DNA from: Nitrosopumilaceae archaeon
GTDB taxonomy: Archaea > Thermoproteota > Nitrososphaeria > Nitrososphaerales > Nitrosopumilaceae
Assembly (NCBI GenBank): GCA_965207375.1
Contig: OZ242274.1
Location: 288,001 to 352,000 of the forward strand
Length of the DNA stretch: 64,000 nt
Direction: 5' to 3'
Shown: positions 61,628-64,000 of the stretch, piece by piece
Numbering within the stretch: position 1 is the stretch's first letter
Layout: the number at the start of each line of letters is the position of its first letter
Position numbers and translations under genes: made by a program
The notes under the pieces: model-generated
The model's input: the letters and a program-made list of their open reading frames with translations, nothing else
What the model was told of the DNA's origin: nothing
Databases searched by the model: none

Positions 61628-61757
61628 TCTCCTTTTTTATTTTCTCAATTTAGTTTTTACACATGCATAAAATTATCAAAACATCTAGGGGATAGGGAAA
61701 GTTTGATTCTCTCTGAAAAGTAATAGAATCCGAATTATTTAATTCTGTTGAAAAACA

Positions 61758-61841
61758 CGCCGAGAGAGGGATTTGAACCCCCGCCACTGGAATGTGAGTG
61801 GATCATAAGTCCACCGTCATACCAAACTAGACCATCTCGGC
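61758..61841 (-). tRNA. Class II tRNA with anticodon TAT (Ile codon AUA) but Ser-like body
   Basis: GCCGAGA/TCTCGGC-G acceptor, GTC/GAC D-stem, GTGGA-CTTATGA-TCCAC anticodon arm, 15-nt variable arm, GGGGG-TTCAAAT-CCCTC T-arm. Confidence 0.88.
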
Positions 61842-62424
61842 ACAAATTTTTACTAGTCAATTAATATAATAAAAATGCCCTGACCATTCCAGTCAAATCA
61901 GGGCTTTTAGTCAAATGTGAGACACATAAGACACGGACAAGTAATCTTGACCATCATTATTAGATAATTGCCTATTAAAAAGAATTGGATGGATTTTTTA
62001 CTACATCAATACGATATGGAACTGTCTTTAATTATACTAGATTGGCATATCTTGCCAATTATGTATCAAGAATTGTATTTTTGAATCTAGTTTCAAAAAT
62101 ATGATGCATATGATCGGGTTATTCTGGGCAGAATTTTGGCTTTAAAAGTAAACCAGATTTGAGAATATGTGAGTGAGATACGATTCTCCAGCGTTAATTG
62201 TTGGTAAAACATCAATATGCAAATTTTCTCTGGATTGCCCGTGCCTAGATTACTGCCTATACCAGCAGATCAATCACACATTATCAAAGCAATCACACAT
62301 TAGCAGAACATAATCTTCTCCGAGTTGTCACTGTTTCATCACACATGTAACTTTGACATTAGAGTTTATTGCACGTACAGTGCAGCGTTTGATATTACTG
62401 TCCTCCACTTTTGTCCGTGTATAG

Positions 62425-63824
62425 TTATACCTGCAGCCTCTGCAGGCGTCTTGCCTCCAAGACTCGAGTGACACCGCATGAAATTGTAATAAATATCACA
62501 TCCTGCAAATATTGGCGAGTTTTTACTTTTAATGCCGCGTCTGGGTCGTTGTATAGCACGTAATGTCCCGTTGAATCTTTCTCAGACATTGTTGTTGTTC
62601 TTTTTGGAAATTCCTGCATTTGATATGTGTGTGCAATGTTGATGTATCGCGTTTGGTGCAGCATACACTGATTCAAATGCTTGTGCATATGAGGGCAGGC
62701 CATCGCTTACAAATTCTGTAGGTTTCTTTCCGGCACGGGCTGCTGCAGCTTTGAGTAGGTTTTCTGCATTGTGTCCGTCCTTGCAGTCTGCAACCTCCCA
62801 TGCTAGTAAAAATCGGGTATCATAATCAGTCTCTGCAAAAAGATAATTTTGTTTACCTCTTATTGAAACGTATTCTTCGTCTGCACAGAATCGATTGCCT
62901 GTATTAATTGAAAGTGACATCAGGTATACATACACCATTGTTACAAATTTGATTATCCATCTGTATATCGTAGATATACACTCCCTTTTGTGCTAGCGTG
63001 TCTTGTATTGCACTAGGTGTATGTCCCTTATAGTAGGCATCAAGTGCATCTGTGATTGCCCATGGTATAGTTTGCATGTGTTCCATGCCTCCCTTGTACC
63101 CAAAGACACGATTGCAATTTTTGCATTGGTATCGTTGCGTAGTGCCATGTCTACGCTGTATGTGACCATATTTTATGATGTGTTCGTCACCGCAATGCAT
63201 ACAGTGTGATGGAATCTCTATTAGAACTATTTCTGTGGTTTTTTTCTCAGTATTGTCATCTGCATCTTTGGGCTGTTTGTCCTGGCAAGGCAGCTTAGCT
63301 GCATCTTTGGATTGTTCATCAATTATTGTCTCTGCATCTCTGTCTACAGTATCTGCAATTACTGCTAGGATATGCTTGCATTGAGCCTGTCTGTATTTGT
63401 GATCTGGACAGTCACAGGACCAAGAATTTTTTTTCTGTATCACGGTATATCTGGTGTTATCCTTAGATTGGGACTGTACTGTGTAATGGTTAGGTTTGAC
63501 TTTTTTTATTGCATTTTGTGTTTCTAGTATTTTCAAGGCACGATTTCCACGCCTCTGTGCACCCTTACTCCAGGATACACGTGTACTCATCCATCTAGTA
63601 ACTCTTGCCATTTTGTCAGTACTGCGCGTAAGCAGTACCGATGTCTTGTTTCGTATAGCCTCAAATTTTTCGTGTAGTTTAAATTTTGATCTTGTATATG
63701 ATTTTTGATATGTTAGTCCCATCATTGCGAAATTCGATGGGACTACATGTCGTGATACATTTGGATCATGTGGGTTAACAAATTTTGAAAAAATGGTTAA
63801 ATTTTTGATCTCTTTTACCTGCAC
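62425..63824 (-). pseudogene. IS6-like DDE transposase with N-terminal SWIM and zinc-ribbon domains, frameshifted in three pieces
   Basis: CDCPDH...CKHI (SWIM); CMHC...QRYQCKNC; ADEEYV, TD..TRFLLA, VSDGLPSY, NNN. Confidence 0.82.
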
Positions 63825-64000
63825 AAGAACAAACTATGTAACAATTGAAGAAATTTTGTAACATTCCCACTTTCTAAAGTTCCTTATATAGTCAGGCAGT
63901 AAAGCATAAGGATCACCACTATCAGCATAAAATATGCTGCCAGGATTTGATCTTGAGGGAATAGATTGGAAGAATCCCGATGTCAACAGGCTTTTCGAGG

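What the first reader, a model, noticed from the sequence alone, without database searches (positions are those of the whole stretch)
61758..61841. Identity-mismatched tRNA: serine-type class II body carrying an Ile (UAU) anticodon
Seen: an intact 7/5 cloverleaf with no unpaired stem positions (G:U allowed), acceptor GCCGAGA...TCTCGGC, discriminator G73, 3-bp D-stem, a 15-nt variable arm (TCAC-ATTCCA-GTGG-C) and loop CT-TAT-GA. It has a TATA-like element about 20-32 nt upstream and a T-run downstream, so it looks expressed rather than decayed. Established: most archaea read AUA with agmatidine-modified tRNA-Ile2(CAU), Ile tRNAs are class I with A73, and SerRS ignores the anticodon and recognises the long variable arm (G73 is the Ser discriminator, whereas archaeal LeuRS needs A73). 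Inference: this tRNA could be serylated and insert Ser at AUA (possibly AUG), giving regulated mistranslation, or act as a non-ribosomal Ser donor or defence tRNA, analogous to described allo-tRNAs but with a canonical fold. ATA still sits at conserved Ile positions here (rfcS ERGI, ureC GIVK), so this is not full codon reassignment.
Basis: partly seen in the sequence, partly recalled or inferred. Interest (0 to 1): 0.85.

Follow-up and report, generated by a model that had tools for sequence, protein, structure and literature searches.

The report
Serine-shaped archaeal tRNA reading isoleucine AUA
An ammonia-oxidising archaeon carries an intact extra tRNA gene built like a serine tRNA but with the anticodon for the isoleucine codon AUA, and similar mismatched tRNAs recur in related archaea, which makes possible deliberate miscoding directly testable.

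Summary
Window 61758-61841 (minus strand) is a canonical 7/5 class II tRNA with anticodon UAU, loop CTTATGA and discriminator G73. It is identical in contigs of three runs from two studies. It is not a private mutation. Class II tRNAs with the same loop but fully different, compensated stems occur in 7 other genomes of 401 searched. A scan of about 185,000 species found 9 more, all in Nitrososphaerota records. One more lies on a viral-labelled contig.

My own serine and leucine covariance models score it 74.5 against 49.1 bits. That margin equals the margin of held-out genuine tRNA-Ser. The same genome holds a sibling with the same acceptor stem but anticodon GAA, and alanine-type (G3:U70) tRNAs with GAA or AAG. 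TiaS, a tRNA-Ile2(CAU) candidate and all canonical Ser and Leu tRNAs are present. ATA makes up 3.1% of codons and still aligns with Ile/Val/Leu, never Ser.

Best reading: an accessory tRNA sitting in an insertion-sequence-rich island, probably charged with serine, the archaeal counterpart of bacterial allo-tRNAs and nematode nev-tRNAs. Charging, expression and use in translation are untested.

The parts
61758..61841 (-). Accessory class II tRNA gene with a serine-type body, G73 and anticodon UAU
   Evidence: ARAGORN. Rfam RF00005, 59.6 bits. 20 of 20 stem pairs standard. Ser model R1 74.5 bits against Leu model R2 49.1 bits. Unique in the genome by blastn.
61805..61807 (-). Anticodon TAT (UAU) within the loop CTTATGA; position 37 is G
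   Evidence: The same loop occurs in 8 of 8 aligned class II UAU tRNAs. No difference in the laid contigs.
61861..61875 (-). A/T-rich TATA-like box, about -34 to -20 from the tRNA 5' end
   Evidence: Read directly from the sequence. A similar CATTTTTAT-type box sits in the same place upstream of the UAU tRNAs of G403 and of the viral-labelled contig L108. That it acts as a promoter is inferred.
61877..61904 (-). 7-bp inverted repeat (GCCCTGA / TCAGGGC) just upstream of the TATA-like box; its loop holds a 9-nt antisense copy of the tRNA's variable-arm loop
   Evidence: For this tRNA alone the 9-mer is weak: I estimate about 0.14 expected by chance. Much stronger self-copies lie upstream of sibling tRNAs. 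Meaning unexplained.
61914..61936 (-). Degenerate collinear partial copy of the anticodon arm and the start of the variable arm, including CTTATG
   Evidence: Seen by eye. It did not reach the score threshold. Weak.
61750..61757 (-). T run (TGTTTTTC) directly after the discriminator; likely transcription stop
   Evidence: Read directly from the sequence. Function inferred.
62177..64000 (-). End of a multi-copy IS element (SWIM zinc finger plus DDE_Tnp_IS240 transposase), 336 nt upstream of the tRNA, running off the window
   Evidence: blastn finds 40 copies of this IS end, all in contig C1. Pfam hits: SWIM and DDE_Tnp_IS240. The sibling Ser-type GAA tRNA lies 123 nt from another copy.

Best explanation
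This is a real, structurally intact and probably transcribable accessory tRNA gene. It belongs to a sporadically distributed family of serine-type class II tRNAs in ammonia-oxidising archaea (Nitrososphaerota). In this family the anticodon has been switched away from serine: UAU here; GAU, GAA, UAA, CAA, UAG, AAG, UUC, UCU and CCU elsewhere.

The gene sits in an island rich in insertion sequences, at a break in gene order. Several of its relatives sit next to transposases or a restriction-modification gene.

[quoted passage not shown] The single SerRS of this genome is therefore predicted to charge this tRNA with serine. On the ribosome it would then read AUA as Ser, in competition with the normal TiaS / tRNA-Ile2(CAU) route. 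AUA is common and is still used as Ile, so its activity must be low, conditional or poor. G37 stands where AUA readers normally carry t6A37.

Shown here: the gene, its fold, its serine-type body, its recurrence with covarying stems and a fixed anticodon loop, and its surroundings. Inferred: serylation, decoding and any benefit.

I rate 'real gene of a recurrent Ser-type family with switched anticodons' at about 0.9, 'charged with serine' at about 0.55, and 'measurably used in translation' at about 0.3. The overall confidence of 0.55 is for the statement as a whole, serylation included.
For: **Gene and fold.** Across 25 class II tRNAs, 97.6% of stem cells pair. 148 cells carry a change on both sides, against a shuffled mean of 36.6 (0 of 500 shuffles reach it). 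Sliding the partners drops pairing to 42-55%.

**Not an error.** Three runs from two studies show no difference.

**Recurrence.** Class II tRNAs with a UAU anticodon loop occur in 8 of 401 class genomes including this one. Six full-length genes were confirmed by ARAGORN. Two are 5'-truncated copies, one of them with loop CTTATAA. A scan of about 185,000 species gave 9 class II UAU genes in 8 records, all titled as Nitrososphaerota lineages. One more lies on a viral-labelled contig. The loop is CTTATGA in 8 of 8 aligned members and G73 is present in 7 of 8, while every stem differs.

**Serine type.** R1 (Ser) scores 74.5 and R2 (Leu) 49.1 bits. Held-out Ser(GCU) tRNAs score 88.5/59.0 and 88.2/62.6. 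Training Leu tRNAs score 56-69.5 under R1 and 104-111.5 under R2. All 23 full-length odd class II tRNAs scored prefer R1, by margins of 0.6 to 31 bits.

**Anticodon switching.** The G405 UAU tRNA is 80% identical to this genome's GAA sibling and has the same anticodon stem.

**Normal AUA decoding is intact.** TiaS scores 109.5 bits. Three CAU tRNAs are present. There is one SerRS. ATA makes up 31.3 per 1000 codons. 0 of 65 aligned ATA positions face Ser.

**Context.**
- This island holds IS240-type, two IS66 and one IS110 transposase genes plus an HNH gene.
- Both Ser-type odd tRNAs of this genome lie within 336 nt of an IS end. Only tRNA-Ile(GAU) at 29 nt, tRNA-Ala(UGC) at 773 nt from that same end, and an Ala-type odd tRNA at 1066 nt come close among the other 51.
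- The flanking genes lie 400 kb and 240 kb apart in two relatives.
- IS240 or IS110 transposases flank the G403 and G360 copies, and a Type ISP restriction enzyme flanks the G405 copy.

**Precedent.** Bacterial allo-tRNAs with serine identity insert Ser at Leu codons in E. coli. UAU is their commonest anticodon, and they lie near toxin-antitoxin and transposon genes (PMC5389517, passages read).
Against: There are no expression data. No RNA run was listed and the promoter is inferred from sequence only. Nothing here shows charging.

My two covariance models are small, with effective sequence numbers of 1.23 and 1.04. They compare only Ser with Leu. No Ile model was built and tRNAscan-SE isotype models were not available.

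G37 and an unmodified-looking UAU anticodon argue for poor AUA decoding.

AUA is 3.1% of codons. An efficient AUA-to-Ser reader should be very harmful, which argues against real use in translation.

The closest precedents point the same way. Six allo-tRNA(UAU) species converted to amber suppressors were inactive in E. coli (PMC5389517). Nematode nev-tRNAs caused no detectable mistranslation (PMC4300185, abstract).

Two relatives (G158b UAU and G158 AAG) carry A73, not G73.

The link to mobile elements is not universal: the G158b and G345 copies lie near a CDC48-type ATPase gene. The one 'viral' contig also carries an IS240-type transposase and only one weak tail-like match, so it may be an island rather than a virus.
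Confidence: 0.55

Rival explanations
1. It is a tRNA-shaped element with a job outside translation, and its anticodon loop is conserved for that job. Candidate roles: an integration target or attachment site of a mobile element, a processing or promoter module for neighbouring genes, a decoy for enzymes that cut anticodon loops, or a regulatory RNA.
For: It lies 336 nt from an IS end and its sibling lies 123 nt from another. Transposases are the only recurrent neighbours in an all-against-all comparison.

5'-truncated copies exist in G404 and G065, as integration into tRNA genes would leave. Thaumarchaeal mobile elements often integrate into tRNA genes, with attachment sites of median length 17 bp (PMC6563490, passages read).

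An upstream sense copy of part of the tRNA itself is found for 12 of 23 odd tRNAs and for 0 of 16 canonical ones. That copy tracks the anticodon between two related members.

The authors of the allo-tRNA paper suggested that allo-tRNA(UAU) species are not used in translation.
Against: An attachment site does not need a complete cloverleaf. Yet all four stems are kept by compensating changes, and the tertiary-contact bases stay invariant (T8, A14, the G19-G20 pair of alignment A1, the T loop). Serine identity marks (G73, variable-arm geometry) are retained.

The self-copies lie only 35-110 nt from their source, not a mobile element's length away. No direct repeat of this tRNA exists elsewhere in the genome.
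Confidence: 0.25
2. It is a genuine isoleucine tRNA. IleRS charges it through the UAU anticodon, and it supplies extra AUA-reading capacity for A/T-rich mobile-element genes, as phage tRNAs do. The serine-like body only records its origin.
For: The anticodons found on this body type read the A/U-rich codons AUA, AUY, UUY, UUA, UUG, CUA, CUU, GAA and AGA. From recall, these are the codons that phage-borne tRNA sets often cover. IleRS relies strongly on the anticodon (established knowledge). tRNA(UAU) does read AUA as Ile in a few archaea and in Mycoplasma mobile (PMC6000648, passages read; PMC3575796, listing only).
Against: It has G73 where Ile tRNAs have A73, and G37 where they carry A37/t6A37. 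This genome's own tRNA-Ile(GAU) and its CAU tRNA both have A37 and A73.

It has a long variable arm and a serine-type score.

The members with Leu anticodons also carry G73, which archaeal LeuRS should reject (recalled). So 'charged according to the anticodon' cannot hold for the family as a whole.

The normal AUA route is present.
Confidence: 0.12
3. It is a dead or dying duplicate of a serine tRNA, a private anticodon mutation, or an assembly error.
For: No full-length orthologue turned up in 60 relatives, including four genomes of the same genus. Its G+C content (about 0.53-0.55) is below that of the canonical Ser tRNAs (0.61-0.65). It lies among broken genes and IS copies.
Against: 20 of 20 stem pairs are intact. 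The sequence is identical in three runs. The same loop sits on different, compensated bodies in other genera and in another family. A sibling shares its exact acceptor stem but has compensated D, anticodon, variable and T stems.
Confidence: 0.03

Closest known systems
Bacterial allo-tRNAs (Mukai et al. 2017, PMC5389517; passages read; review PMC7609411)
   Same: Both have serine identity marks (long variable arm, G73) combined with non-serine anticodons. UAU is the most abundant anticodon among allo-tRNAs, and Leu and Arg AGA/AGG anticodons are also common. Some allo-tRNAs carry G3:U70, the alanine mark; this genome also holds G3:U70 tRNAs with GAA or AAG. Both are often found near transposon-related or defence-type genes and are scattered across genomes.
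   Different: Allo-tRNAs are defined by an 8/4 or 9/3 acceptor/T-stem layout and were reported from bacteria (Clostridia, Proteobacteria, Acidobacteria). This tRNA is archaeal and has the canonical 7/5 layout. It scores like an ordinary local tRNA-Ser.
Nematode nev-tRNAs (Hamashima et al., PMC3333845 in a listing only; PMC4300185 abstract; review PMC4033280 passages)
   Same: These are canonical-fold class II tRNAs carrying class I anticodons. UAU (Ile) is one of their two major types. They are conserved, yet no mistranslation was detected. The codon concerned is AUA.
   Different: nev-tRNAs are eukaryotic and are charged with leucine in vitro. This tRNA has G73 and a serine-type body. The 2014 review lists none in archaea or bacteria.
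Yeast tRNA-Ser(CAG) and tRNA-Ala(CAG), which reassign CUG (recalled; PMC6041473 seen only in a listing)
   Same: Serine or alanine bodies gain a hydrophobic-codon anticodon, because SerRS and AlaRS ignore the anticodon.
   Different: In those yeasts the codon is truly reassigned or dual-coded genome-wide. Here AUA remains Ile and the tRNA is an accessory gene present in few genomes.
Archaeal tRNA-Ile(UAU) of Korarchaeum cryptofilum and Nanoarchaeum equitans (PMC6000648, passages read)
   Same: An archaeal tRNA with anticodon UAU for AUA.
   Different: According to that paper, the Korarchaeum tRNA closely matches that genome's own tRNA-Ile(GAU), so it is an ordinary Ile-type tRNA. This one is class II with G73. 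That survey of 167 archaeal genomes found tRNA(UAU) in only those two. Its single thaumarchaeon was Nitrosopumilus maritimus SCM1.

Membership tests
tRNA (Rfam RF00005) | Cloverleaf covariance model score above the gathering threshold (29 bits) | tested here: met
   59.6 bits, E 2.2e-10, model positions 1-71. ARAGORN also calls it.
Archaeal tRNA-Ser (class II) | Long variable arm with serine-type geometry, and a serine-type D arm | tested here: met
   The variable region is 15 nt with a 3-4 bp stem. The D loop lacks the two extra bases of the local Leu tRNAs. Ser model 74.5 bits against Leu model 49.1 bits, the same margin as held-out Ser tRNAs. The models are small and made here.
Archaeal tRNA-Ser (class II) | Discriminator G73 | tested here: met
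   G follows the 7-bp acceptor stem. The local Leu tRNAs have A73.
Archaeal tRNA-Ser (class II) | Serine anticodon (NGA or GCU) | tested here: not met
   The anticodon is UAU. All four canonical Ser isoacceptors exist elsewhere in contig C1.
Archaeal tRNA-Ser (class II) | Charged with serine by SerRS | not testable with these tools
   One SerRS gene is present. Charging needs a bench assay.
tRNA-Ile | Anticodon reading an Ile codon | tested here: met
   UAU pairs with AUA.
tRNA-Ile | Class I body with A73 and A37 | tested here: not met
   It is class II with G73 and G37. This genome's tRNA-Ile(GAU) and its CAU tRNA with an Ile-like acceptor both have a short variable loop, A37 and A73.
Archaeal tRNA-Leu | A73 and the leucine-type D loop and variable arm | tested here: not met
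   It has G73 and scores 49.1 bits under the Leu model, against 104-111.5 bits for real Leu tRNAs.
allo-tRNA | 8/4 or 9/3 acceptor/T-stem layout | tested here: not met
   7-bp acceptor stem and 5-bp T stem, all paired.
allo-tRNA | Serine identity marks with a non-serine anticodon | tested here: met
   See the rows above. It works like an allo-tRNA on paper but is not a member by structure.
nev-tRNA | Class II fold with a class I anticodon (UAU or CCC) | tested here: met
nev-tRNA | Nematode-specific, leucine-accepting | tested here: not met
   The host is archaeal: the relatives' records are titled Nitrosopumilus, Nitrosopumilaceae and similar. The body is serine-type, not leucine-type. Actual charging was not tested.

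The most novel reading that the evidence does not exclude
Mobile elements of ammonia-oxidising archaea carry a toolkit of deliberately mis-matched tRNAs. Serine-identity and alanine-identity bodies are fitted with anticodons for frequent hydrophobic codons (AUA, AUY, UUY, UUA, UUG, CUN). They would be kept silent by operator-like inverted repeats and self-mimicking leaders. Once switched on, they would flood the proteome with Ser or Ala at Ile, Phe and Leu codons. That would be a tRNA-based toxin, used for host take-over, abortive infection or addiction.
Probability: 0.15. Interest if true: 0.92.

Novelty: new variant of a known kind. Interest (0 to 1): 0.72.

Why it matters
tRNAs whose body and anticodon disagree are the raw material of genetic-code change and of programmed mistranslation. 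They are known from bacteria (allo-tRNAs), nematodes (nev-tRNAs) and yeasts. My four relevant literature searches found no description of them in archaea.

Here the two body types whose synthetases ignore the anticodon, Ser and Ala, both appear with anticodons for hydrophobic codons. They keep a canonical fold that the host machinery should accept, and they occur in ecologically important nitrifiers.

UAU turns up as a preferred anticodon in three unrelated lineages: bacteria, nematodes and now archaea. That hints at a common reason, perhaps that AUA depends on a specially modified tRNA.

The case is directly testable by tRNA sequencing, charging assays and proteomics in cultured Nitrosopumilus relatives that carry such genes.

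Tried and rejected
**No intron hides another anticodon.** The gene is 84 nt with no spare bases. The variable arm is a plain 3-4 bp hairpin like those of the local Ser tRNAs, not a bulge-helix-bulge motif.

**This is not the missing tRNA-Leu(UAA).** ARAGORN listed no UAA tRNA. By eye, C1:902510-902631 is a Leu(UAA) gene with two introns and A73 that ARAGORN labels 'caa'.

**Orthologue search by DNA.** 41 of 61 genomes matched, but the matches were T arms or ordinary Ser(GCU) tRNAs (L002, L008), plus one class II UAA tRNA (L003). None was a full-length orthologue.

**Exact acceptor-stem pattern.** 16 of 201 genomes matched. The only tRNAs were this genome's two and the Ser(CGA) of four genomes of another genus. 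The rest were chance matches in coding DNA.

**Pattern artefacts.**
- Most TTATGA hits are a class I tRNA-Lys(CUU) with an intron. I dropped 28 of the 36 matching genomes.
- In one search, ARAGORN gave 11 'tat' calls among 69 matched stretches. Two of them are this Lys type.
Of the 56 tRNAs ARAGORN called on the stretches I scanned, it labelled 3 'gaa'. I keep two (L217, L234) as class II GAA with G73 and dropped L241, which has a called intron.
- In the viral UAU scan, 1 of 6 stretches was a class II UAU tRNA. Two 86-nt 'His(atg)' calls (L109, L111) were not analysed.

**Anticodons read by eye.** Several anticodons (GAU, CAA, UAG, UUC, UCU) were read from the matched strings, not called by ARAGORN. 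ARAGORN failed on the G005 GAA candidates.

**Failed guesses in the island.** The 161-aa ORF I took for an integrase fragment has no Pfam match. The 'ParM-like' ORF has only a weak BcrAD_BadFG hit below threshold.

**No conserved partner gene.** No second synthetase or other dedicated partner lies next to these tRNAs, and there is no second SerRS.

**Expression.** No RNA holder was listed by the look-up of sequencing runs. This says nothing about expression.

**Closed or unavailable resources.** Supplementary files of papers were not opened; the supplementary tables of PMC5389517, PMC6563490 and PMC6000648 may list further tRNAs that bear on novelty.

**Unpublished genomes.** G352, G102, G418 and G386 were among those searched.
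Full report
**1. The observation**

Window 61758-61841, minus strand, is a tRNA. ARAGORN calls tRNA-Ile(tat). Rfam's tRNA model matches end to end at 59.6 bits, E 2.2e-10.

The cloverleaf is the canonical 7/5 type. The acceptor is GCCGAGA/TCTCGGC and the discriminator is G. The D stem has 3 bp, the anticodon loop is CTTATGA and the variable region is 15 nt. All 20 acceptor, D, anticodon and T stem pairs are standard.

An A/T-rich TATA-like box lies at about -34 to -20, and a T run follows the discriminator.

The sequence, anticodon included, shows no difference in contigs of three public runs from two studies. One of them may be the assembly's source.

**2. The rest of the decoding set**

The window is C1:288001-352000 of a four-contig assembly. 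Contig C1 (2.16 Mb) carries all of the following:
- four canonical Ser isoacceptors (GGA with an intron, UGA, GCU, CGA);
- Leu CAG, UAG, GAG and CAA, plus a two-intron Leu(UAA) that ARAGORN mislabels;
- tRNA-Ile(GAU);
- three CAU tRNAs. By eye these are an initiator (A1:U72), an intron-bearing elongator Met, and one whose acceptor stem resembles tRNA-Ile(GAU), the likely tRNA-Ile2.

TiaS is present (PF08489, 109.5 bits, 438-aa open frame). There is one SerRS.

ATA accounts for 31.3 per 1000 codons and 37% of Ile codons in 897 long ORFs of C1. I aligned two conserved proteins to orthologues of 74-79% identity. The 65 positions opposite ATA codons of this genome hold Ile 43 (18 of them as ATC or ATT), Val 11, Leu 7, Trp 2, Met 2 and Ser 0. 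AUA is therefore still isoleucine, and the UAU tRNA is surplus to the normal system.

**3. It is serine-shaped**

I built covariance models from 18 distinct canonical Ser tRNAs and 17 distinct canonical Leu tRNAs. They came from eight genomes each, this genome and seven relatives.

| tRNA | Ser model (bits) | Leu model (bits) |
|---|---|---|
| UAU tRNA of the window | 74.5 | 49.1 |
| Held-out Ser(GCU), L002 | 88.5 | 59.0 |
| Held-out Ser(GCU), L008 | 88.2 | 62.6 |
| Training Leu tRNAs | 56-69.5 | 104-111.5 |
| Training Ser tRNAs | 91-104 | 46-61 |

The models are small and I made them here. They also give Leu an advantage at the anticodon, because UAG is close to UAU. The serine margin is still that of a real tRNA-Ser. 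G73 and a D loop without the two extra Leu bases agree with this.

**4. It is not alone in its genome**

At C1:1677242-1677325 lies a second class II tRNA with the identical acceptor stem and G73, but anticodon GAA. Its D, anticodon, variable and T stems all differ by compensating changes.

ARAGORN also lists six class I tRNAs with G3:U70 and A73 (alanine-type acceptors) carrying GAA, and one carrying AAG. A further AAG copy is an Rfam hit read by eye. The genuine tRNA-Phe is separate.

Every surplus tRNA I found in C1 thus has either a serine-type or an alanine-type body. These are the two synthetases known not to read the anticodon.

**5. It is not a private mutation**

*DNA similarity.* No orthologue appeared in 60 relatives.

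*Structure-aware pattern for class II tRNAs with a UAU loop, 401 genomes of the class.*
- 36 genomes matched. In 28 of them the match was an intron-bearing tRNA-Lys(CUU), which I dropped.
- The other 8 (this genome included) hold class II UAU sequences: five of the 84 genomes of another genus, one genome of a third genus with two copies, and one genome of another family.
- Six of these are full-length tRNAs by ARAGORN.
- Two are 5'-truncated copies, one of them with loop CTTATAA.

*Scan of one genome per species (about 185,000 species).* It gave 69 matched stretches in 68 loci. Nine are class II UAU tRNAs in eight records, all titled as Nitrosopumilus, Nitrosopumilaceae, Nitrosotenuis, Nitrososphaera or Thaumarchaeota. 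None of the eight non-thaumarchaeal matches is one.

*Viral-labelled contigs.* One 65-kb contig with 32% G+C in the fetched part carries a class II UAU tRNA with G73, and 5 kb away an alanine-type GAA tRNA. That is the same pairing as in this genome. The contig also holds an IS240-type transposase and only one weak tail-like match.

*Shared and variable features.* In the eight aligned UAU members the loop CTTATGA is invariant and G73 is present in seven, while every stem differs. Over 25 class II tRNAs, 97.6% of stem cells pair and 148 cells carry double changes, against 36.6 in shuffles. Pairing drops to 42-55% when the partners are slid.

**6. The family switches anticodons**

Class II GAA tRNAs matched in 15 of 301 family genomes, in five genera. 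ARAGORN confirmed 11 of the 12 loci fetched, all with G73.

A search for A or U at position 35 in 121 well-assembled family genomes added UAA, CAA, UAG, AAG, GAU, UUC and UCU (several read by eye). A same-genus relative has CCU.

The UAU tRNA of G405 is 80% identical to this genome's GAA sibling. It has the same anticodon stem and T arm. So anticodons change within one lineage of the body.

Alanine-type GAA tRNAs matched in 4 of 121 genomes.

**7. Surroundings**

The tRNA lies in about 12 kb of small broken frames and transposase genes: SWIM plus DDE_Tnp_IS240, two IS66, one IS110 and an HNH gene. The conserved genes on either side are 400 kb and 240 kb apart in two relatives.

An IS with 40 copies of its end, all in C1, ends 336 nt upstream of the tRNA. 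The GAA sibling is 123 nt from another copy. Among the other 51 tRNAs only these come close: tRNA-Ile(GAU) at 29 nt, tRNA-Ala(UGC) at 773 nt from that same end, and one alanine-type odd tRNA at 1066 nt.

Related transposases adjoin the odd tRNAs of G403 and G004. IS110 transposases and a DUF4145 protein flank the G360 copy. A Type ISP restriction-modification enzyme flanks the G405 copy. The G158b and G345 copies lie near CDC48-type ATPases.

**8. An unexplained feature**

Within 250 nt upstream, 12 of 23 odd tRNAs carry a sense copy of part of their own sequence.
- In serine-type members this is 13-20 nt of the anticodon-stem and variable-arm region, at about -70 to -50.
- In all five alanine-type members examined it is the anticodon arm, at -56 to -33.
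- None of 16 canonical tRNAs of this genome has such a copy.

The copies sit inside inverted repeats just upstream of the TATA-like box. Between the related G405 UAU and G000 GAA genes, the copy follows the anticodon.

For the window's own tRNA the signal is weak. There is a 7-bp inverted repeat whose loop holds a 9-nt antisense copy of the variable-arm loop. A degenerate partial copy lies further upstream.

I cannot say whether these are recombination scars, operators or leader structures.

**9. Interpretation**

The gene is real, folded, serine-shaped and recurrent, so selection keeps both the cloverleaf and the UAU loop.

By established knowledge, SerRS reads the long arm and G73 and ignores the anticodon. 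Serylation is therefore the most likely charging. If so, the tRNA would put Ser at AUA.

AUA is frequent and remains Ile, so its activity must be low, conditional or poor. G37 stands where AUA readers carry t6A37.

The closest precedents are these:
- Bacterial allo-tRNAs have serine identity, and UAU is their commonest anticodon. Some insert Ser at Leu codons and are toxic in E. coli, the UAU group was inactive there, and they are often found near toxin-antitoxin or transposon genes (PMC5389517, passages read).
- Nematode nev-tRNAs are class II with a UAU or CCC anticodon and are charged with Leu in vitro. No mistranslation was detected in vivo (PMC4300185, abstract).

This tRNA works like them on paper. 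It is not a member of either group, because it has a 7/5 fold, is archaeal and is serine-type.

**10. Novelty**

- A survey of 167 archaeal genomes found tRNA(UAU) only in Korarchaeum and Nanoarchaeum (PMC6000648, passages read).
- A 2014 review lists no nev-type tRNA in archaea (PMC4033280).
- A study of integrated mobile elements in Thaumarchaeota mentions tRNAs only as integration targets in the passages I read (PMC6563490).
- The searches found no description of such tRNAs in archaea. Supplements were closed.

I file it as a new variant of a known kind.

Noticed in passing
G000 contigs C2, C3, C4 (outside the window): These three contigs (0.43-0.93 Mb) may not belong to the archaeon. ORFs of at least 250 aa cover only 5-10% of them, against 57% of C1. 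They hold none of the 40 IS-end copies. From recall, their tRNAs (Arg, Asn, Ser UGA, Thr arrays) look eukaryote-like. They may be host or other eukaryotic DNA binned with the archaeon.
   Followed up: partly
G000 C1:823190-823261, 1341225-1341299, 1355322-1355397, 1407365-1407439, 1444064-1444136, 1974998-1975072, 234286-234361, 1233030-1233096: Class I tRNAs with alanine-type acceptors (G3:U70, A73) carry anticodon GAA (six) or AAG (two). Some have a mismatch at pair 31-39 or in the acceptor stem. The same type occurs in 3 other genomes of 121 and on the viral-labelled contig L108.
   Followed up: partly
G000 C1:1677242-1677325: A sibling serine-type class II tRNA has the identical acceptor stem and G73 but anticodon GAA (loop CTGAAGA). 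It lies 123 nt from an IS end.
   Followed up: yes
Upstream of the odd tRNAs, e.g. L093 (G405) and G000 C1 about 1677150-1677241: Upstream self-copies of the tRNA's variable-arm and anticodon-arm segments sit inside inverted repeats. A GGWACCGTA-like motif is repeated two or three times next to the TATA-like box in two related members. Origin and function are unexplained.
   Followed up: partly
G000 C1:902510-902631 and C1:242223-242312: By eye, tRNA-Leu(UAA) carries two non-canonical introns and ARAGORN mislabels it as 'caa'. The initiator tRNA has a D-loop insertion and lies about 560 nt from the TiaS gene.
   Followed up: no
L101 (G305) 1189-2021: The serine model scores four tandem class II tRNA-like genes about 200-300 nt apart. 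At least two carry GAA-type loops.
   Followed up: no
L314 (G004) 1490-1574 and L343 (G004) 420-516: A same-genus relative has a class II G73 tRNA with anticodon CCU (Arg AGG). It also has a 97-nt class II GAA tRNA with a very long variable arm.
   Followed up: no
G312 C1:557961-558020 and 594947-595006: Two identical class II GAA tRNA sequences lie in inverted orientation 37 kb apart. They may mark the ends of an element.
   Followed up: no
window 62177-64000 and 39 other places in C1: An IS with a SWIM zinc finger and a DDE_Tnp_IS240 transposase is present in about 40 end copies. One end lies 29 nt from the canonical tRNA-Ile(GAU).
   Followed up: partly
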